NCBI GenBank assembly: GCA_035628335.1
Contig: DASPKA010000048.1
Location: 1-37,442 of the forward strand
Source: Patescibacteria group bacterium
GTDB lineage: Bacteria; Patescibacteriota; Doudnabacteria; UBA920
Direction: 5' to 3'
Length of the DNA: 37,442 nt
The translations under genes and the position numbers were made by a program. A model generated the notes under the pieces. It did not search any database. It was not told where the DNA came from and was given only the letters and a program-made list of their open reading frames with translations. Shown in pieces: positions 265 to 30,495 of this stretch; positions within the stretch are counted from its first letter, which is position 1; the number at the start of each line of letters is the position of its first letter.

Positions 265-279
265 ATACACCAGTTGTCT

Positions 280-358
280 TTCCCGCCCCCGTCTTCACGA
301 GGGTAAACTCCGGCGGGAATCCATGTGCTTAGCCCTGGATTCCCGCCTTCGCGGGAAT
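280..358. repeat. Cluster of three overlapping GC-rich REP-like hairpins built on GGGAAT/ATTCCC units
   Basis: Three stems: ttcccgcc(280-287)/ggcgggaa(312-319); gggaatcc(315-322)/ggattccc(337-344); attcccgc(339-346)-cttc-gcgggaat(351-358). They lie directly upstream of the GIY-YIG gene start. Confidence 0.6.
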
Positions 359-391
359 GACAAAGAGAAGGGTAGGGGCGCCGGACGGTAC

Positions 392-685
392 TTATAATGC
401 GTCAATTTGTAGGTTGCGCAGTTGATTTAAAGAGAGGCCTAAAATGTGCTTAGTTGCGAGTAGCTTCTTAGAGAGAGCAAACTGATCTTGATATTCGTCT
501 TTCAACCTTACGAACACATTCCCTTCAGAAGCGTCTGATTCACGCTTCATATGTAGGATTATCTTTTTCCTGTTGAGCATCTTGCCCACAATTACTGCAT
601 CATCCGAACTCAACGCCTTTATATTTGGCGACTTCTCGTCTGATTCAAAAATCTGACCTATTTCAAACATTTCACTTATTCGCAT
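392..685 (-). CDS. Hypothetical protein (97 aa)
   Basis: ORF-track ORF only. No recognisable motif and a weak SD (gaaggt about 12 nt upstream). It lies between the REP-like hairpins and the grpE fragment. Confidence 0.35.
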   Translation of the reverse strand: MRISEMFEIGQIFESDEKSPNIKALSSDDAVIVGKMLNRKKIILHMKRESDASEGNVFVRLKDEYQDQFALSKKLLATKHILGLSLNQLRNLQIDAL

Positions 686-700
686 AGCAATTTATAACCT

Positions 701-788
701 TCAATTAATAATACTGTCGTTCTTTGTTATGACCACCTGCGAGGGACGTATAACCATATCACCAATAGTGTAGCCGGTTTGGTACTCT
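701..788 (-). pseudogene. Orphan duplicate of the last 28 codons of grpE
   Basis: The minus strand reads (MI)EYQTGYTIGDMVIRPSQVVITKNDSIIN*. The real GrpE C-terminus is EYQTGYTIGDMVIRPSQVAITKNDGPQQ*. Nucleotides 713-788 align with 878-953 (76 nt; I count 11 mismatches by eye, and the 24 nt next to the repeat are identical). Confidence 0.65.
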
Positions 789-796
789 ATCATAGA

Positions 797-865
797 GGCT
801 AGCGTCGCCCCCTCACTTCGGGCAGAGCCCTACGTGAGCCTCCCCCTCTCGCCGCCTTGCGGCTA
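797..865 (+). repeat. GC-rich structured repeat element, copy A
   Basis: Sequence ggctagcgtcgccccctcacttcgggcagagccctacgtgagcctccccctctcgccgccttgcggcta. It aligns along its full length with copy B (2200-2265) and with the reverse complement of copy C (4272-4339). Confidence 0.85.
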
Positions 866-1378
866 TTATTGCTGTGGACCGTCGTTCTTAGTAATTGCTA
901 CCTGCGAAGGGCGAATTACCATATCACCTATAGTGTAGCCGGTTTGGTACTCTTCTACTATTAAATTTTCTTCGTCGCCTGGGACGGTGCGGATGGCTTC
1001 GTGGAGGTTGGGGTCAAATTTTCTCCCTACAGATTCTATCTTTTTAACCCCTAAGCTTCCTAAAGCATCATTGAGCTGCTTAACAAGAGCACGTAACCCT
1101 TCTTGCCATTCCGAGTACCGCTTCTGGAATTCTTGAAATTCGCCCGTTCCTAACTCAGGCAAGTGTGTAAGGGCTTGCGTTAAGGAATCTAGGGCAGGCA
1201 GCAGTTTAACAATTGCTACCTGCTTTGAGAACAGCCCCAATTCCACATCTTCAGCGGTTCGTCTCCGTTTATAATTTTCAAACTCGGCAGCTGAACGCTT
1301 CCATGAGTCAAGGTATTGGTCGCGCTGCTTAATTACATCTTCCAAACTTTCTTCTGTAGTTTGTACTTTGTCGTCCAT
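866..1378 (-). CDS. grpE: Nucleotide exchange factor GrpE
   Basis: 170-aa ORF with the GrpE signature DSWKRSAAEFENYKRRRTAED and the C-terminal beta-domain HEAI...GYTIGDMVIRPSQVAI. It sits immediately downstream of hrcA (2-nt gap). Confidence 0.93.
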   Translation of the reverse strand: MDDKVQTTEESLEDVIKQRDQYLDSWKRSAAEFENYKRRRTAEDVELGLFSKQVAIVKLLPALDSLTQALTHLPELGTGEFQEFQKRYSEWQEGLRALVKQLNDALGSLGVKKIESVGRKFDPNLHEAIRTVPGDEENLIVEEYQTGYTIGDMVIRPSQVAITKNDGPQQ

Positions 1379-1380
1379 AA

Positions 1381-2160
1381 TTACTTAATAATTGTGATTA
1401 AAAATATTGAACCGCCTATTCCTAGTAATTTGGAAATGTATTCCATGAACGGTAAATTCTTCTCGTACTTCATGGACTTGGGACCTATTAGCCCAACCAC
1501 GCCCTTTTTGCCGTCTGGCAATTGAACCCCAGTAACGATTACCGAGTAATCACTCTTTGGAGTTAGTTGCAGTTCTTTACCTATATACGCCTGCGCTGTA
1601 CTATTTTGGTATTTTTGTATAAGGCCTTCAGCATGCTCGTCCAGGTTGTCGAAAAATTTGGAAATTTCTTTCACATCTTCTTGGGGAAGTCCAGCCGCGG
1701 ACATAATATTAGACAAGCCAACCGCAGAAGTTTCGTCGGGAAGGAGGGTAAAAGAGGCGGCGTGTGTAGACTCTGCAAGCAGTTTAGCTAAACGCCTGCC
1801 AATCTCTGCGTTTATTCCCTGGAGCTTTAAGACTTCTGTCCGGAGGCGTTCCTGCTCTTGCATGGAGAGCTTAGTCTTCTCCATAAGCTGGTTTACAAAG
1901 TAGCGGAAACCTTTGTCTGTAGGAACACGGCCTGCTGAAGTGTGAGGCTGAGAAATGTACCCTTGTTGTTCTAGGTCCTGCATCTCATTTCGAATAGTTG
2001 CTGCACTGCACTCAAAATGGTACTTTTCAAGAATTTCTTTAGATCCAACCGGCTCCCCAGTCTCGCAGTTTTCTTTCACAACAGCTGCCAAAATTTTAGC
2101 TTGTCTTTGCGGAATCTGAACAAATAAAGGCTCCTTGTTTCTTGAAGGTTTTATTGCCAT
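1381..2160 (-). CDS. hrcA: Heat-inducible transcription repressor HrcA
   Basis: Contains AATIRNEMQDLEQQGYISQPHTSAGRVPTDKGFRYFVNQL (HrcA N-terminal winged helix). I trimmed the start to ATG 2158-2160 (MAIKPSRNKEP...) because the 20 upstream codons of the track ORF translate repeat copy B. Confidence 0.9.
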   Translation of the reverse strand: MAIKPSRNKEPLFVQIPQRQAKILAAVVKENCETGEPVGSKEILEKYHFECSAATIRNEMQDLEQQGYISQPHTSAGRVPTDKGFRYFVNQLMEKTKLSMQEQERLRTEVLKLQGINAEIGRRLAKLLAESTHAASFTLLPDETSAVGLSNIMSAAGLPQEDVKEISKFFDNLDEHAEGLIQKYQNSTAQAYIGKELQLTPKSDYSVIVTGVQLPDGKKGVVGLIGPKSMKYEKNLPFMEYISKLLGIGGSIFLITIIK

Positions 2161-2199
2161 ACTATAAATGTAAATCATTATTAGCACGACCATATACGG

Positions 2200-2265
2200 G
2201 GCTAGCGTCGCCCCCTCCATCGGCCATAAGCCTTATGGAGCCTCCCTCTCGTGCCCTTGGCACTA
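2200..2265 (+). repeat. GC-rich structured repeat element, copy B
   Basis: Sequence ggctagcgtcgccccctccatcggccataagccttatggagcctccctctcgtgcccttggcacta. Same architecture as copies A and C. It lies between the hrcA start codon and the CIRCE operator. Confidence 0.85.
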
Positions 2266-2305
2266 AGAGCATGCTTATAGTGGTTAACTTAAAGATAAAT
2301 CATTA

Positions 2306-2332
2306 TTAGCACTCTGTCAAGTAGAGTGCTAA
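2306..2332. promoter_or_regulatory. CIRCE operator (HrcA binding site)
   Basis: ttagcactc-tgtcaagta-gagtgctaa is an exact match to the consensus TTAGCACTC-N9-GAGTGCTAA. It lies upstream of hrcA. Confidence 0.92.
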
Positions 2333-2392
2333 TAATGTATGTTATCAAGAAAAAACCCGCCTTTCACTCCATTGGACGGTTTTTTCTATAGG

Positions 2393-3484
2393 TTAGGTCC
2401 AGCTGGGGAGTCTGAGAACAAATTTGGTACCATGAGGCTGCACCGGTGAATGGGTAAGGTTCCCTTTCAAGAGCGCTGCATACTGCGTGGCCAATCTAAG
2501 CCCCATGCCATGTGAGGTCTTGTTAAACATTTCGTTCTTCATATCTGCTTCTTTTTCTAACCCACCCATTCCCGGGCCATCGTCTTCCACTGAAACCTCA
2601 AGAACATTTTTTGTATGGGGGAGCCATACTGCGTTTACTTTCACATTCCCGCCTGGGAAAACAAACTTAAGTGCGTTATGAAGCAAAATATCGAAAATCT
2701 CTGTAGCTAAATTTGGGTCGGTCTGCGCGACGAATTCTGGAGTCTGCGTCTCAAAAGTTATAGTTATGTTTTTTGTTTTCGCCCATTGTTCGTAACTATG
2801 TTTCCGCTGTTCAAAAAGTTTCACAAAATCCATAGACATAACTTCTGGTTGTATAATGCCGCCCTCAAGTTTTGTTGCGTTTAACAAGTCTTTAGCTACT
2901 CTGCATAAATTTAAATTTGCTTCATACGCAGACAATAGGTATGACTTCATACGTTCAGGAATCGCCTGCTTTTCTGAGAGTGCAAGAGCCAATTCCAAAT
3001 ATCCTTGAGACACACCTGCAGGGGTCTTGATCTGATGCGCAGCCATGGAAACCAAGGAGCTTTGCATGTCTTTGACATTGAACATTCGCTCGGCTTTACG
3101 TAACTTCACCACCCCTCCAAGAACTTCGCCTGTTTCTAAATCTTTAACCGGTATGCTCTTTAACACCATAGGCATCATGGTGTCGTGCTTTGTGTGGTAA
3201 AAACAGAAGAACGGCAACATTTGAGTTATACCTGTATCGAACATTCTTTGAACCGGATGACTCGTAGGCGTAATGGCATCCCCCTCTACATTTGCCCAAA
3301 GAGGGATCGCATCAAAAAAATCCTTCCCGACCAACTCTGTATCATACACATCTAAGAGCGCCAATATCTTTTGGTTGGCCGATAAAATCTTCCCATTGGG
3401 GTCTAAAAAGGTCATTCCCTCTTCAAACGCATCTTCCACTAAAGCAGCGTGGAGTGCGTCTGCAGGGAAAAAATGGTAGGGCAT
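2393..3484 (-). CDS. Sensor histidine kinase, cytoplasmic (PAS-like N-terminus, HisKA, HATPase_c)
   Basis: H-box SMAAHQIKTPAG, G1 box VEDDGPGMG and G2 box GMGLRLATQY. No hydrophobic TM segment. A 3-nt gap separates it from the upstream response regulator. Confidence 0.88.
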   Translation of the reverse strand: MPYHFFPADALHAALVEDAFEEGMTFLDPNGKILSANQKILALLDVYDTELVGKDFFDAIPLWANVEGDAITPTSHPVQRMFDTGITQMLPFFCFYHTKHDTMMPMVLKSIPVKDLETGEVLGGVVKLRKAERMFNVKDMQSSLVSMAAHQIKTPAGVSQGYLELALALSEKQAIPERMKSYLLSAYEANLNLCRVAKDLLNATKLEGGIIQPEVMSMDFVKLFEQRKHSYEQWAKTKNITITFETQTPEFVAQTDPNLATEIFDILLHNALKFVFPGGNVKVNAVWLPHTKNVLEVSVEDDGPGMGGLEKEADMKNEMFNKTSHGMGLRLATQYAALLKGNLTHSPVQPHGTKFVLRLPSWT

Positions 3485-3487
3485 ATT

Positions 3488-4162
3488 TTAGAGTTTGTCG
3501 GACTTGATTCGGTATCCAATATTTTGCACTGTTTCTATAAAATCTGCATTTGCCTTTCGTAGTTTCCTGCGCAGGTTGTACATAACCACTTCTATAAGGT
3601 TGCTTTGATGTTCTTTATTGTATCCCCAGACGTGTTCTTGAATCATTGACCGAGTACAAACACGGTCCGCTTTACGAAGAAGGAAATCCAGCAATCTAAA
3701 TTCGTTTTTGGTTAGCTTTATCCTTACGCCGTTTATCAAAACTTCATGGGTCCCATACATAACTTCAACACCACCTATAGTGAATGTATTGCTTAGGACT
3801 TGTTTAGGACGCCTTAAGAGCGCACGGACTCGTGCAACCAGTTCGGTAACCGCAAATGGCTTGGTGACATAGTCGTCAGCTCCATTATCAAGCACATCTA
3901 CCACACTACTTAACTGGTCATTTGCTGTCAAGACTAAAATAGGAACAGAAATTTCAAGCTCACGAACTCGCTTGATTATCTCTTGCCCAGTCACGAAAGG
4001 CAAGTCCAAATCAACTATTAGCAAGTCATAATCCCGCACTTCTACGCGCTCTAATGCCTGCTTACCATCCAAAGCAGTGTCAACTACGTAGTTTTCCTCC
4101 TGCAAAACGGTCTTAATGAGCTCGCTCTGTTCTTTATTGTCCTCAATTATGAGTATTACCAT
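3488..4162 (-). CDS. OmpR-family response regulator (REC + winged-helix)
   Basis: REC domain MVILIIEDNK...YDLLIVDLDLP...LVLTA...KPF. C-terminal part LTKNEFRLLDFLLRK...VWGY...NLIEVVMYNLRRKL...IETVQNIGYRI. Confidence 0.9.
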   Translation of the reverse strand: MVILIIEDNKEQSELIKTVLQEENYVVDTALDGKQALERVEVRDYDLLIVDLDLPFVTGQEIIKRVRELEISVPILVLTANDQLSSVVDVLDNGADDYVTKPFAVTELVARVRALLRRPKQVLSNTFTIGGVEVMYGTHEVLINGVRIKLTKNEFRLLDFLLRKADRVCTRSMIQEHVWGYNKEHQSNLIEVVMYNLRRKLRKANADFIETVQNIGYRIKSDKL

Positions 4163-4271
4163 ATACTGGTGAAAATTAAGTCTAACTTCAGTATACCAGT
4201 ATAAATATGAAGAGAAAATGAATGGGGTATTAAAGATTAACTTTTATTACTAATTTATCTTTATCGATTTA

Positions 4272-4339
4272 TAGCGGCAAGGCCGCGAGAGGGGGAGGCT
4301 CCATAAGGGCTCTGCCCGTTGGAGGGGGCGACGCAAGCC
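4272..4339 (-). repeat. GC-rich structured repeat element, copy C (inverted orientation)
   Basis: The reverse complement reads ggcttgcgtcgccccctccaacgggcagagcccttatggagcctccccctctcgcggccttgccgcta. It lies upstream of the response-regulator gene. Confidence 0.85.
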
Positions 4340-4403
4340 CCTATAGTATAAGAGAAAATGAATGAGGTATTAAAGATTAACTTTTATACTATTAGTAAAA
4401 TAT

Positions 4404-5580: not shown

Positions 5581-7740
5581 ATGCTGACTCTGACAAGTGC
5601 TCAAAAAATTTCACTCTTAAACCAGACTACGCTCAAGTGCTTTAGCACGCCGGACAAAACTCTTATTGCAAAACATTTTACTCGTTCCGCCTTAAAAATT
5701 TTGGGCGGTGATTTTGGATTTATGTGGTTCAAAGACAGATCTGGCGACTACTCTTTGGCATATAAATCCCCAAACCTTCCATATAACCCTATCCCCCCAC
5801 GTAAACACGGCATCAACAAACGAGCAGACAAAACCCGAAACCCGCAGTACCTAGAGAAAATTCCCTATCAAGACACAAAGTATGATGTTTCTGCATACAT
5901 GTCTAGCTTTGTAATAATTCCAATAACCTACCAGAATCGCATGTATGGTAATGCTGTAATCTGTTTTAAAAAACCCAAAAAATTTTCCGCTGAAGACAAA
6001 AGTCTCTGCGTCGCAGTAGGCAATGCAATCGCCCAGGCCTTGACCATCAACCGCCTTGTAGGGTCGCTCGCTGGGTACAAAAAAATAATTGACAGTACCT
6101 CTGAGGCGCTGCTAGTGTTAGACCCACAAACAAAAGCTGTTCTGTACTGTAACCCAGCAAGTCAAAGGTATGCACCTGAAGGGAAGACTCACGCTGACAC
6201 TCATATTAGCGAGATTTTTTCTTCGCTTAACATGGAAATGCTTTCAGCTGCTATTAAAAAAACCTTACAAGAAAATACCCGTCAGGAGTTTGAATCAACC
6301 ATAACAAACCCACAACGTACGGTGCTTCAAATTGCCATTGAGCCACTACGAAACTCGCCCTGGGGTACTGTTGTTGTGCTATTGGTTCACAATATTACGG
6401 AACGCAAAAAAACATTTCAGAAAATTAAGCGACTAGCATACTACGACCGCCTGACAAGTATGCCCAACCGTATGCACTTTGAAGAGGACTTAGTAGCTGA
6501 AGTAGAAACGGCTCGCAAAAACAGCCAGACGTTCTCACTCATCCTTATAGACTTGGACCGGTTTAAGTTTATTAACGATTCTCTCGGCCACCGAGAAGGT
6601 GACAGAGTGCTTCAGGAAACTGGCAAGCGGCTGAAAAAATGTATACGTTCATCTGACAGTGCGTACCGAATAGGTGGCGATGAGTATGCCATAATCATAC
6701 GCGACCAAAACTCGAAACAAGCAGCGGTTACTGTATGCGAAACCATACTCCGACTCCTTGAAATGCCTATGGAAGTAGGTGCACATGAAGTGTACTCCAC
6801 CGCATCTATTGGACTCGGATTTTACCCAACTGATGGAAAAGATTTTGACACATTGCTACGCCACACAGACTATGCATTGTACTTAGCAAAAGAGGCAGGA
6901 GGCAACACCTATATGGGGCTTCCGCTGAACTCCACAGATGTCAAACCCCAAGACAATTGGCAGCTAGACGCTGACCTTCGCAAAGCAATATCACGAAACG
7001 AATTCGTATTTTACTACCAACCTATTTTTACCCTCTCAGAGCCACACACTACAACCCAACTAGAAGCCATACTCCGTTGGAATCACCCTAAGCGGGGTCT
7101 TGTGATGCCGGTTGCGTTTCATAAGTACTTAGAGGCCTCAGGGTTAATTGTGGGTTTAACCGAATGGCAGTTTAATCAGGCGTGTGAAATGATACTCAAT
7201 CTGAGAGCGGTAAAGTTAGAAATTCCTATTTGTATAAATATTTCTGCGCGTCAACTATTGCAACAAAACTTTTTTCAGACAGTCACCTTCACGCTGCAAA
7301 AGCATGACATTGACCCCTCACTTATAAAGCTCGAACTTACAGAAACACTGTTGATAAAGAACTTAGAAGCCTCTCAAGAACTGCTTGCGAAATTTAGGAG
7401 TCTTGGATTTAGGGTAATGGTTGATGACTTTGGCACGGGGTATGCCTCGCTCAATTACCTTAAGGACCTTCGGGTAGACGGGATAAAAATCGATCGTTCG
7501 TATATTCAACATATTCATAAAAGTCCAATGGACCTTGCTATTGTGCGCGCGCTTATTTTTCTCTGCACGGAATCAGGTCTAGAGCTCGTAGCGGAAGGCG
7601 TGGAAACAACCCAACAAAAAGACATTTTGCTTAACGCAGGTGCAAACCTTGCACAGGGATACCTATACAGTGAGCCACTTGCAGCTGAAAAGTGTATTGA
7701 AATGATCACGAAAAAGAACAAGAAAAAAACCCGGGAGTAA
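5581..7740 (+). CDS. GAF-PAS-GGDEF-EAL cyclic-di-GMP signalling protein
   Basis: GGDEF domain: YYDRLTSMPNR...LILIDLDRFKFINDSLGH..GD...RSSDSAYRIGGDEYAII (GGDEY variant with RxxD five residues upstream). EAL domain: YYQPIF...LEAILRW...ELTE...DDFGTGYASLNYL...KIDRSYI...AEGVET..QGYLYSEP. Confidence 0.9.
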   Translation: MLTLTSAQKISLLNQTTLKCFSTPDKTLIAKHFTRSALKILGGDFGFMWFKDRSGDYSLAYKSPNLPYNPIPPRKHGINKRADKTRNPQYLEKIPYQDTKYDVSAYMSSFVIIPITYQNRMYGNAVICFKKPKKFSAEDKSLCVAVGNAIAQALTINRLVGSLAGYKKIIDSTSEALLVLDPQTKAVLYCNPASQRYAPEGKTHADTHISEIFSSLNMEMLSAAIKKTLQENTRQEFESTITNPQRTVLQIAIEPLRNSPWGTVVVLLVHNITERKKTFQKIKRLAYYDRLTSMPNRMHFEEDLVAEVETARKNSQTFSLILIDLDRFKFINDSLGHREGDRVLQETGKRLKKCIRSSDSAYRIGGDEYAIIIRDQNSKQAAVTVCETILRLLEMPMEVGAHEVYSTASIGLGFYPTDGKDFDTLLRHTDYALYLAKEAGGNTYMGLPLNSTDVKPQDNWQLDADLRKAISRNEFVFYYQPIFTLSEPHTTTQLEAILRWNHPKRGLVMPVAFHKYLEASGLIVGLTEWQFNQACEMILNLRAVKLEIPICINISARQLLQQNFFQTVTFTLQKHDIDPSLIKLELTETLLIKNLEASQELLAKFRSLGFRVMVDDFGTGYASLNYLKDLRVDGIKIDRSYIQHIHKSPMDLAIVRALIFLCTESGLELVAEGVETTQQKDILLNAGANLAQGYLYSEPLAAEKCIEMITKKNKKKTRE

Positions 7741-29694: not shown

Positions 29695-29709
29695 GCAAGA
29701 TGAGAATAA
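29695..29709 (-). promoter_or_regulatory. Conserved 15-nt box TTATTCTCATCTTGC (copy 1) at the predicted transcript start
   Basis: Identical 15-mer at 30381-30395. Both copies lie 3-4 nt downstream of a predicted -10. Both are followed 17-18 nt later by CCAGCGAA (29669-29676 and 30356-30363). Confidence 0.6.
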
Positions 29710-29712
29710 AGT

Positions 29713-29741
29713 ACCATATCATAAAAAATAGTTTCTGTCAA
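29713..29741 (-). promoter_or_regulatory. Sigma70-type promoter for 29243-29551
   Basis: Minus strand: ttgaca (29736-29741), 17 nt, tatggt (29713-29718). Confidence 0.55.
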
Positions 29742-30380: not shown

Positions 30381-30395
30381 GCAAGATGAGAATAA
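30381..30395 (-). promoter_or_regulatory. Conserved 15-nt box TTATTCTCATCTTGC (copy 2)
   Basis: See copy 1. It is preceded by ttgaca (30423-30428), 17 nt, ttacat (30400-30405) on the minus strand. Confidence 0.6.
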
Positions 30396-30495
30396 TGCAA
30401 TGTAACCTAAAATATTCTACTATGTCAATTGCCAAAAATTCATTAATATTGTTAAATATTAGATCTGTAGAACAACTAAGTAAAGGAGATTTTGA

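What the first reader, a model, noticed from the sequence alone, without database searches (positions are those of the whole stretch)
701..4390. Every copy of the repeat is bracketed by a long, imperfect direct duplication of its target (17 to ~76 nt)
Flanking duplications at each copy:
- Copy A: 713-788 duplicates 878-953 (76 nt, 11 mismatches by my count).
- Copy B: 2171-2187 duplicates 2296-2312 (17/17), with weaker similarity extending a few nt further.
- Copy C: 4211-4247 duplicates 4351-4387 (37 nt, 1 mismatch), with gapped similarity extending on both sides.

In each case the layout is [dup]-10 to 30 nt-[repeat core]-10 to 30 nt-[dup]. Classical IS/MITE target-site duplications are short and of fixed length. 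Long duplications of variable length point to another insertion mechanism. Candidates are widely staggered nicks, target-primed or template-switch synthesis, and hairpin-stimulated replication slippage. Alternatively they are site-specific recombination scars.
Basis: seen in the sequence. Interest (0 to 1): 0.65.

Follow-up and report, generated by a model that had tools for sequence, protein, structure and literature searches.

The report
Small repeat inserted with long target duplications
A widespread, unannotated ~85-base GC-rich hairpin repeat has landed three times in this stretch, each time copying 23 to 76 bases of its target so that the interrupted gene end or promoter stays intact. 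This is a rare, poorly understood way for DNA to insert in bacteria.

Summary
Three copies of one ~85-nt, three-hairpin GC-rich element (789-877, 2188-2289, 4248-4349) are each bracketed by direct repeats of 76, 23 and 38 nt. They are two of only three direct repeats of 30 nt or more in the whole 37-kb window.

The element is a large family in Nitrospirota, Syntrophia and other phyla. It is absent from Rfam, and from the plasmid and phage collections.

About 13% of sampled single copies carry such repeats (11-76 nt), anchored at one precise element end. The rest carry none.

For a sister copy (L044), a related population holds the empty site: exactly the insert plus one 55-nt repeat is missing. 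So the duplication arises at insertion.

The repeats are not passive scars:
- Where they cover a gene's 3' end (grpE here; groEL, rplL and others elsewhere), the two copies differ almost only synonymously (26:6, P=3e-7).
- The differences are polar.
- One population shows tandem amplification.

These features imply recombination with element-free alleles or gene conversion.

The closest known case is "insertion with long target duplication", described for restriction-modification genes. Here the cargo is a tiny non-coding repeat. The enzymology is unknown.

The parts
789..877 (+). Element copy A (89 nt). It holds an AT-rich left end ATCATA, hp1 GAGGC..GCCCC, hairpin 2, GAGCCTCCCCCTC, hairpin 3 GCCGC-CTT-GCGGC and a tail TATTATTGCTGTGG. 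The tail supplies the last three codons and the stop (PQQ*) of grpE.
713..788 (-). Displaced copy of the grpE 3' end (downstream repeat). It still reads EYQTGYTIGDMVIRPSQVVITKNDS. The native tail IIN and the TGA stop (701-703) follow, then 15 nt, then the start of the conserved downstream ORF (685).
878..953 (-). Gene-attached copy of the grpE 3' end (upstream repeat). It has 11 differences from 713-788: 9 synonymous and 2 non-synonymous by single-nucleotide count.
866..1378 (-). grpE (170 aa). Its stop codon lies inside element copy A.
2188..2289 (+). Element copy B (102 nt including a 26-nt unique tail). It sits between the hrcA promoter/CIRCE operator and the hrcA start, so it is now part of the hrcA-grpE 5' UTR.
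2165..2187 (+). Repeat next to the hrcA start (ATG at 2160-2158, minus strand). It duplicates the -10 region and the right half of CIRCE.
2290..2312 (+). Upstream copy of the same 23 nt. It is part of the true CIRCE palindrome (2301-2337; TTAGCACTC-N9-GAGTGCTAA at 2305-2331) and of the promoter TTGACA-17-TATCTT.
1381..2160 (-). hrcA (259 aa from the ATG at 2160). Public gene calls start it at an ATG inside the element (2220, 279 aa).
4248..4349 (-). Element copy C (102 nt, opposite orientation). Its hp1 end is at 4349, and hairpin 3 is GCGGC-CTT-GCCGC.
4210..4247 (+). Repeat on the hairpin-3 side of copy C, in the region upstream of the response-regulator gene 3488-4162.
4350..4387 (+). Repeat on the hp1 side of copy C (37/38 identical to 4210-4247). 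About 5 more nt of gapped similarity lie on the outer side.

Best explanation
The three repeats are copies of a non-autonomous, non-coding, structured interspersed element. It has an AT-rich end, a hairpin GGGGC..GCCCC, a covarying hairpin between two C-rich blocks (GTCGCCCCCTC and GAGCCTCCCCCTC) and a third covarying hairpin, about 80-90 nt in all. The family is abundant in Nitrospirota, Syntrophia/Syntrophorhabdia and other soil and groundwater bacteria.

[quoted passage not shown] Shown:
- The duplication is created at insertion.
- Its length is variable.
- The junction at the hp1 end is precise to about +/-4 nt, while the other junction is ragged and carries 0-26 nt of unique filler.

Inferred: the element DNA is joined by one end to a nicked or broken target. 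The second junction forms only after repair or replicative synthesis has re-copied 11-76 nt of target. This could be fill-in of a widely staggered break or a template switch. No transposase with a fixed stagger is involved.

Because the duplicated piece regenerates the interrupted end, insertions into the 3' end of grpE and into the hrcA promoter are tolerated. This selection explains why the repeats span stops and starts.

Afterwards the repeats act as recombination substrates:
- precise loss;
- tandem amplification;
- exchange with element-free alleles, with the crossover forced into the displaced copy, and/or gene conversion from the functional copy.

This recombination keeps the displaced copy 'coding-like' and most similar next to the element's hp1 end.
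For: The repeats are real and specific to the element.

The family and its structure:
- The cores are conserved.
- Hairpin 2 has 5 pairs with compensatory changes and 11 G-U pairs on the gene-sense strand.
- The gene-sense strand folds better in 54 copies against 9.

Empty sites:
- L044 in run X11 skips exactly 132 nt, with 55 nt shared by both sides.
- The groEL loci L167-L170 are empty, while L009 and L171 are filled at the same site.
- rplL relatives skip 178 nt.

One end is precise. The inner edge of the left repeat lies 6-15 nt before GGGG in all cases. The right repeat starts 16-56 nt after the core, or 135 nt in L087.

No recurrent neighbouring protein was found, and no ORF fits in the 77-103-nt inserts.

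Target ends are regenerated at grpE, rplL, groEL, RarA-like, NifU-like and TldD-like 3' ends, at a tRNA-Lys promoter plus 5' half, and at an RBS plus start codon.

Later recombination:
- Differences are 26 synonymous to 6 non-synonymous, P=3e-7 against neutral decay of the displaced copy.
- Mismatches are polar, p=1e-4.
- Within-genome repeat copies differ by 5-16%, while the groEL orthologues differ by 25%.
- Element-free rplL relatives carry the displaced-type codons. They are closer to L093 on the downstream side (14/449 differences) than on the gene side (18/281).
- A contig that 'goes back 148' shows tandem amplification.

Literature precedent for this mode of insertion is PMC2853133. It reports that the repeats often span start or stop codons and that such units amplify through their repeats.
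Against: - No empty site or close relative could be found for the three window copies themselves. HrcA relatives are at most 66% identical. The insertion history here is therefore inferred from sister copies.
- About 87% of family members, especially in copy-rich genomes, show no flanking repeat. The family must have another way of spreading, or old repeats in non-coding DNA have decayed.
- The enzymes are unknown.
- Recombination with element-free alleles does not by itself predict the observed polarity.
- The excess of synonymous change near the ragged junction could also mean that this part came in with the element from another lineage.
Confidence: 0.6

Rival explanations
1. Retroposition. 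The element is a SINE-like RNA, read in the sense of the flanking genes and ending ...GCCCCUAUAAU-3'. It is copied by a reverse transcriptase primed on a nicked target. Variable second-strand nicks give variable duplications, and incomplete copying gives the ragged other end.
For: There is one precise end and one ragged end, and the duplication length varies. The gene-sense strand is the better folder and uses G-U pairs. The AT-rich terminal 8 nt vary from copy to copy.
Against: No reverse transcriptase was found near any copy. No RNA data could be obtained. In repeat-flanked copies the ragged end mostly falls just after hairpin 3, rather than showing graded truncation. Most copies have no duplication at all.
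Confidence: 0.13
2. A MITE moved in trans by a DDE transposase of the kind that makes long, variable target duplications (the IS1634/IS1549/IS1630 type).
For: Such transposons are the only classical ones known to give duplications of tens of bases (PMC2266710 and PMC2853133).
Against: The two ends show no terminal inverted repeats. The right end is not constant even among the three copies of this one genome. No transposase lies in any of about 120 loci.
Confidence: 0.08
3. Displacement. The element travels together with the neighbouring gene end from another lineage. It enters by one homologous crossover in the gene plus one end-join (or as a small circle). The 'duplication' would then be a foreign gene end next to the resident one.
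For: The differences are synonymous and orthologue-like, and they change sharply from 0% to about 20-28% divergence. In L093 the gene-attached, element-proximal codons are the odd ones relative to element-free relatives. The displaced groEL tail of L009 keeps the state (KTA) seen in more distant relatives.
Against: Young copies have perfect repeats (55/55 and 67/67), and the L044 empty site equals one repeat copy. The duplication therefore starts as a true self-copy. The model also cannot explain the first arrival at a new gene, and the element is not seen next to the same genes in copy-rich genomes.
Confidence: 0.1
4. Site-specific recombination scars. The repeats are attL/attR of a miniature integrative element.
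For: Two sister copies join tRNA genes at the anticodon arm (L087, L110). Copy B joins inside the CIRCE palindrome.
Against: Three unrelated sequences are duplicated within 4 kb of one genome. Repeat lengths range from 11 to 76 nt. No integrase is nearby. A hairpin at the junction is seen in only 3 of 14 targets.
Confidence: 0.04
5. No insertion mechanism at all. The hairpin element was already there, and local replication slippage duplicated neighbouring DNA by chance.
For: Hairpins stall forks. Tandem arrays and nested partial copies exist.
Against: Empty sites lack both the element and one repeat copy together. The repeats always abut the same element end.
Confidence: 0.03

Closest known systems
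Insertion with long target duplication (Nobusato et al. 2000; Furuta, Abe and Kobayashi 2010, PMC2853133)
   Same: - The insert is present in one genome, and a related genome has an empty site with a single copy of the repeat.
- The repeats are long and variable (tens of bases and more).
- There is no transposase or integrase in the insert.
- The repeats often span the stop or start of the target gene, so the gene stays intact.
- The repeats support tandem amplification.
- The mechanism is unknown.
   Different: - The cargo there is kilobase-sized restriction-modification gene units, each a one-off event, and a break made by the restriction enzyme was suggested as the cause. Here the cargo is one and the same ~85-nt non-coding structured repeat. 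It recurs at many sites and in several phyla, and it encodes nothing.
- One junction is precise here.
- Repeat B (23 nt) is below the 30-bp criterion used in that work.
REP/BIME, ERIC and Correia-type intergenic repeats and bacterial MITEs
   Same: It is a small, GC-rich, hairpin-forming, non-coding, high-copy element. It lies between genes, often right after a stop codon or just upstream of a start. In Nitrospirota it is sometimes combined with a GTAG-palindrome-CTAC module.
   Different: Those elements insert with no duplication or a short fixed one (for example TA) and are largely lineage-specific. This core is conserved across phyla, has no terminal inverted repeats, and has a subclass with 11-76-nt duplications.
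IS1634/IS1549/IS1630 transposons
   Same: Their target duplications are long and variable in length.
   Different: They are autonomous elements with inverted repeats and a DDE transposase. None of these features is seen here.
Rickettsia palindromic elements
   Same: A small structured repeat can sit inside a protein-coding gene in frame. One sister copy sits inside a Clp ATPase (L115).
   Different: From my own knowledge, no target duplication is described for those elements. Here the in-frame case repeats 15 residues on both sides of the element-encoded peptide.
Displaced 'orphan' C-terminal tips of Rhs/CDI toxin genes
   Same: A displaced, still coding-like copy of a gene's 3' end lies downstream of the functional end.
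   Different: Those arise by acquisition of a new, different tip. Here both ends encode the same protein end, and young cases are exact self-copies.

Membership tests
Insertion with long target duplication (sensu Nobusato 2000 / Furuta 2010) | A related genome has an empty site that lacks the insert. | tested here: inconclusive
   This is met for sister copies: L044 vs run X11, groEL L009/L171 vs L167-L170, and rplL L093 vs X27/X28. It is not obtainable for the three window copies, because no close relatives were found.
Insertion with long target duplication (sensu Nobusato 2000 / Furuta 2010) | The target sequence is single at the empty site and direct-repeated on both sides of the insert. 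| tested here: met
   For L044 the joint skips 132 nt (77 + 55), with 55 nt fitting either side. For L171 a 71-nt repeat flanks the element, against a single gene end in L167-L170.
Insertion with long target duplication (sensu Nobusato 2000 / Furuta 2010) | The repeat is long (more than 30 bp in their screen) and varies between events. | tested here: met
   The window repeats are 76 and 38 nt, with copy B at 23 nt below their cut-off. Elsewhere the repeats are 19-71 nt.
Insertion with long target duplication (sensu Nobusato 2000 / Furuta 2010) | The inserted segment holds no transposase, integrase or other mobile-element gene. | tested here: met
   The inserts are 77-103 nt and non-coding, and there is no recurrent neighbouring gene.
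Classical IS-derived MITE | Terminal inverted repeats. | tested here: not met
   The left end is (C)TATTATAGGGGCT. The right end is variable after hairpin 3, and the termini show no inverted match.
Classical IS-derived MITE | A short target duplication of fixed length. | tested here: not met
   The distribution is bimodal, none or 11-76 nt, with no excess of 7-9-nt repeats over controls.
REP / REPIN (RAYT-mobilised) | Association with a RAYT (Y1 HUH transposase) gene in the genome. | not testable with these tools
   Only 8-kb pieces around copies are held, and no such gene lies in them.
Site-specific integrative element (attL/attR) | The same core or att sequence occurs at every integration site of one element type. 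| tested here: not met
   Three unrelated duplicated sequences occur in one genome. The 14 targets share no motif, and only 3 of them form a hairpin at the junction.
Target-primed retroposon (SINE-like) | An RNA intermediate and a reverse-transcriptase partner. | not testable with these tools
   No RNA runs could be listed, and no RT gene lies in the held loci.
Any Rfam RNA family | A covariance-model match. | tested here: not met
   No hit overlaps any copy at the gathering score or at E<=10.
Diversity-generating retroelement (TR/VR pair) | The repeat differences are confined to adenines of one copy, and an RT gene is nearby. | tested here: not met
   The differences are of all base types, and there is no RT gene in the window ORFs near the copies.

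The most novel reading that the evidence does not exclude
The element is a cross-phylum parasite of DNA repair or replication. A structured single strand (DNA or cDNA) with one defined end is stitched into breaks or forks by template switching, without any dedicated transposase.

The long self-made duplications would do three things for it. They let it sit inside the ends of essential, highly conserved genes (groEL, rplL, grpE, tRNA). They let it amplify. They also give it two conserved homology arms, with which the filled allele can spread by ordinary homologous recombination into diverged relatives. That would explain the synonymous, polar differences.
Probability: 0.2. Interest if true: 0.85.

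Novelty: new variant of a known kind. Interest (0 to 1): 0.62.

Why it matters
(1) It adds a recurrent, sequence-defined cargo to 'insertion with long target duplication'. That mode of DNA insertion has been known for 25 years only from one-off gene units, and its mechanism is unsolved. A small element that does it again and again, with empty sites and amplified forms in public metagenomes, makes the mechanism testable.

(2) It reveals an abundant, phylum-crossing structured repeat that no RNA or repeat library holds. In the soil, peat and groundwater samples its read depth is roughly 10-400 times that of the flanking DNA.

(3) It has practical effects on annotation and regulation here. grpE gets an element-encoded C-terminus and stop. 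hrcA is mis-started inside the element. The CIRCE operator and promoter are moved 125 nt away from hrcA, with the element in the 5' UTR of the heat-shock repressor operon.

(4) A displaced, untranslated gene end that still evolves like coding DNA is a clean natural marker of recombination between filled and empty alleles.

Tried and rejected
- Rfam at gathering and permissive thresholds, on the window and on four sister loci: no family overlaps the element. By eye it does not fit twister, HDV-like, group II domain V, integron attC or a retron.
- Literature search by sequence strings: nothing relevant.
- Plasmid and phage collections: only a 32-nt chance hit in a Vibrio plasmid. IMG/VR: one real copy, without repeats.
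- Search for an associated protein by clustering all ORFs within 2.5 kb of about 120 copies: only generic histidine kinases, response regulators and ABC ATPases. A pair of inverted copies in L013 flanks ordinary metabolic genes, not a transposase.
- Reads and contigs of the window's own samples: no empty-site or rearranged form.
- 45 metagenomic hrcA-grpE relatives: none carries the element, and they are too distant (51-66% HrcA identity) to serve as empty sites.
- Local templates for the unique tails next to hairpin 3: none.
- Hairpin-forming target at the precise junction: striking in copy B (CIRCE), L044 and L087 (tRNA anticodon arm), but not general.
- DGR-type adenine mutagenesis: the differences are of all types.
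- Read-through translation of copy A: three in-frame stops inside the element.
- Metagenome mis-assembly: rejected. An independent Logan assembly has the same structure, and long-read MAGs show such repeats too (L044, L088).

Full report
**1. The observation**

The three repeat pairs exist at the stated coordinates:
- Copy A: 713-788 / 878-953, 76 nt with 11 mismatches.
- Copy B: 2165-2187 / 2290-2312, 21/23 identical, the inner 17 exact.
- Copy C: 4210-4247 / 4350-4387, 37/38 identical.

Between each pair lies one copy of a GC-rich repeat. Copies A and B are on the + strand and copy C is on the - strand. There are no further copies in the window. In the whole 37-kb window only three direct repeats of 30 nt or more exist, and two of them are the pairs around A and C. 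The association is therefore real.

**2. What is duplicated**

The region encodes, on the minus strand, a response regulator (3488-4162), a histidine kinase (2393-3484), hrcA (1381-2160), grpE (866-1378) and a conserved small ORF (392-685).

Repeat A is the last 25 codons of grpE.
- The gene-attached copy runs into the element, which supplies the final codons PQQ and the stop.
- The displaced copy still reads EYQTGYTIGDMVIRPSQVVITKNDS. It continues with the native tail IIN*, followed 15 nt later by the downstream ORF. This is the arrangement seen in 35 distant relatives.

Repeat B is the -10 region plus the right half of the CIRCE operator of hrcA.
- The promoter TTGACA-17-TATCTT lies in CIRCE and the upstream repeat copy.
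- The element is therefore now inside the hrcA-grpE leader.
- Public gene calls start hrcA at an ATG inside the element.

Repeat C is non-coding DNA upstream of the response regulator.

**3. The element is a large, unannotated family**

A capped scan of one genome per species found at least 119 stretches. They come from Nitrospirota, Syntrophus, Syntrophorhabdus and other 'deltaproteobacterial' MAGs, from Acidobacteria and from Patescibacteria, among others.

The consensus is (C)TATTATA-GGGGCTNGC-GTCGCCCCCTC-[hairpin 2]-GAGCCTCCCCCTC-NN-[hairpin 3]. Further modules are often attached on the hairpin-3 side.

Evidence for a folded structure:
- Hairpins 2 and 3 vary in sequence but keep pairing. 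Five pairs of hairpin 2 show compensatory changes.
- There are 11 G-U pairs on the strand that has the same sense as the flanking genes.
- That strand folds better in 54 copies against 9.

It is in no Rfam family, and it is not in the plasmid or phage collections. No protein recurs next to it. In the source metagenomes the core is roughly 10-400 times deeper than its flanks.

**4. Do other copies have flanking repeats?**

Some do.
- Flank-to-flank alignments exceed the 99th percentile of a control in 24 of 117 copies.
- About 13-15 single copies have repeats of 11-76 nt. The others in that set are tandem arrays of [element + spacer] (L105, L067, L036, L017).
- With an exact-match test tied to the element's left end, 13 of 106 copies have 11 nt or more, against 2 and 1 at control positions. 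There is no excess of short 7-9-nt repeats.

The distribution is therefore bimodal, none or long. Repeat-flanked copies are concentrated in assemblies with few sampled copies (13/65, against 1/40 in copy-rich assemblies; Fisher p=0.015).

The inner edge of the repeat on the hp1 side is always 6-15 nt before GGGG. The other repeat starts 16-56 nt after the core (135 nt in L087), usually just after hairpin 3 plus 0-26 nt of unique sequence. That unique sequence has no local template.

**5. The duplication arises at insertion**

- The L044 copy has a perfect 55-nt repeat covering the last 17 codons and the stop of a TldD-like gene. A contig from a different sample joins the flanks so that exactly 132 nt (a 77-nt insert plus one repeat) are absent, and 55 nt fit either side.
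- Two Patescibacteria whose groEL genes are 75% identical (L009, L171) carry the element at the same place after groEL. Both have the same hairpin 3 and a repeat that starts at the same codon. The repeat is 71 nt in L171.
- Two other lineages that are equally distant (L167-L170) have the plain gene end followed by the same AGTA-rich spacer that follows the displaced copy.
- At rplL (L093), relatives 3-7% diverged lack 178 nt. This equals the 148-nt unit plus a further 30-nt nested copy of the gene end.
- In another sample, a contig that 'goes back 148' shows a tandem [repeat+element] amplification.

**6. The repeats are not passive scars**

In five loci the displaced copy lies beyond a stop codon: grpE here, and rplL, groEL, RarA-like and NifU-like genes elsewhere.
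- There the copies differ at 26 synonymous and 6 non-synonymous positions.
- If the displaced copy had drifted neutrally, 36% synonymous would be expected (P=3e-7).
- A sixth case (L115) is an in-frame insertion in a Clp ATPase with 5/5 synonymous differences.

The mismatches are also polar. They cluster away from the element's hp1 end (mean relative position 0.37, permutation p=1e-4). There is often a sharp step from a 21-44-nt identical block to about 20-28% divergence.

Within a genome the two groEL copies differ by 5-16%, while the orthologous genes differ by 25%.

At rplL, the element-free relatives carry the codons of the displaced copies. They are also closer to L093 on the downstream side (14/449 differences) than on the gene side (18/281).

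My reading is an inference. Filled and empty alleles recombine, and because homology is interrupted by the element, the crossover is forced into the repeat. In addition, conversion near the stalled or broken hp1 end keeps that part identical. A rival reading is that the element-proximal gene end came in with the element. It is not excluded for old copies, but it cannot explain the young, perfect ones.

**7. Mechanism**

Excluded or unlikely:
- A fixed-stagger transposase, because the lengths range from 11 to 76 nt.
- A MITE with inverted ends, because none are present.
- att-type recombination, because three unrelated targets occur in one genome and only 3 of 14 junctions lie in hairpin-forming DNA.
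- Slippage without insertion, because the empty sites lack the element and the repeat together.

What remains is either a one-ended joining followed by re-synthesis of target DNA (a staggered break or a template switch) or a target-primed reverse-transcription variant. I favour the DNA-level version (0.6 for the overall explanation) but could not test the enzymology.

Selection explains why the repeats span stops, starts, promoters and a tRNA 5' half: only insertions that regenerate the interrupted end survive.

**8. Comparison with what is known**

The closest description is 'insertion with long target duplication', reported for restriction-modification gene units (PMC2853133). Shared features are long variable repeats, empty sites, repeats spanning start or stop codons, amplification through the repeats, and an unknown mechanism.

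The differences are the cargo and its recurrence. Here one tiny, conserved, non-coding structured repeat does it many times in several phyla, with one precise junction. I file it as a new variant of that known kind. It is not a member of the IS/MITE, REP, integrative-element or retroposon families, whose defining features were either not met or not testable.

**9. Limits**

- No close relative of the window's organism was available, so the history of copies A-C is inferred from sister copies.
- Run data were assembler contigs, not reads.
- No transcript data were available.

Noticed in passing
window 270-460: There is a second, unrelated GC-rich palindromic repeat (ATTCCCGCCTTCGCGGGAAT at 339-358, of the form ATTCCC-N8-GGGAAT). 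It overlaps the 3' end of ORF 392-685 and is itself bracketed by a 10-nt direct repeat ATGTGCTTAG (324-333 / 444-453). In the source sample its depth is about 2336, against about 9 for the flanks. One contig skips 53-337.
   Followed up: partly
window 2301-2337: The CIRCE operator of hrcA is a perfect palindrome with 15-nt arms. The -35 box TTGACA sits inside its 9-nt spacer. The same design is seen in most of 45 distant relatives, several of which carry a second, degenerate CIRCE 32-44 nt downstream.
   Followed up: partly
window 1381-2220: Public gene calls give hrcA 279 aa, starting at an ATG inside element copy B. The conserved protein starts at 2160 (259 aa). Likewise, the last 3 residues and the stop of grpE are element-encoded.
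   Followed up: yes
L115 (Clp ATPase gene), element near locus end: The element is inserted in frame inside a Clp-family AAA+ ATPase. The protein reads ...FLPDKAIDVMDEVGAEVKLRKQ-[29 element-encoded residues]-DVMDEVGAEVKLRKQ..., a 15-residue repeat on both sides, and the ORF stays open.
   Followed up: partly
L093 4547-4635: A third, 30-nt nested copy of the rplL end (AAGAKVELK*) directly follows the displaced copy, with no element between. It also differs only synonymously. Element-free relatives lack it.
   Followed up: partly
L087 (about 5900-6290) and L110 3322-3720: Two sister copies are joined to tRNA genes at the anticodon arm. L087 has a perfect 67-nt repeat covering the promoter and the 5' half of tRNA-Lys. 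L110 has a tandem [element + spacer + 3' half of a tRNA].
   Followed up: partly
many loci, e.g. L025, L026, L034, L046, L073, L100: In most family members the hp1 end lies 10-30 nt upstream of the ribosome-binding site and start codon of a gene that reads away from it (87 of 136 copies have a start facing that end). The end reads ...CCCCTATAAT on that strand, which looks like a -10 box. The element may supply or modify 5' leaders.
   Followed up: partly
L094, L029 (right of the core): Some copies in Nitrospirota contain a nested partial second core (…GCAAAGCCGGATGGAGCCTCCCCCTC…) about 60 nt after the first. This suggests internal partial duplications of the element itself.
   Followed up: no
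window 29695-29729 and 30381-30415: This is the only other long direct repeat in the window (35 nt, 77% identical, 686 nt apart). It is not associated with the element.
   Followed up: no
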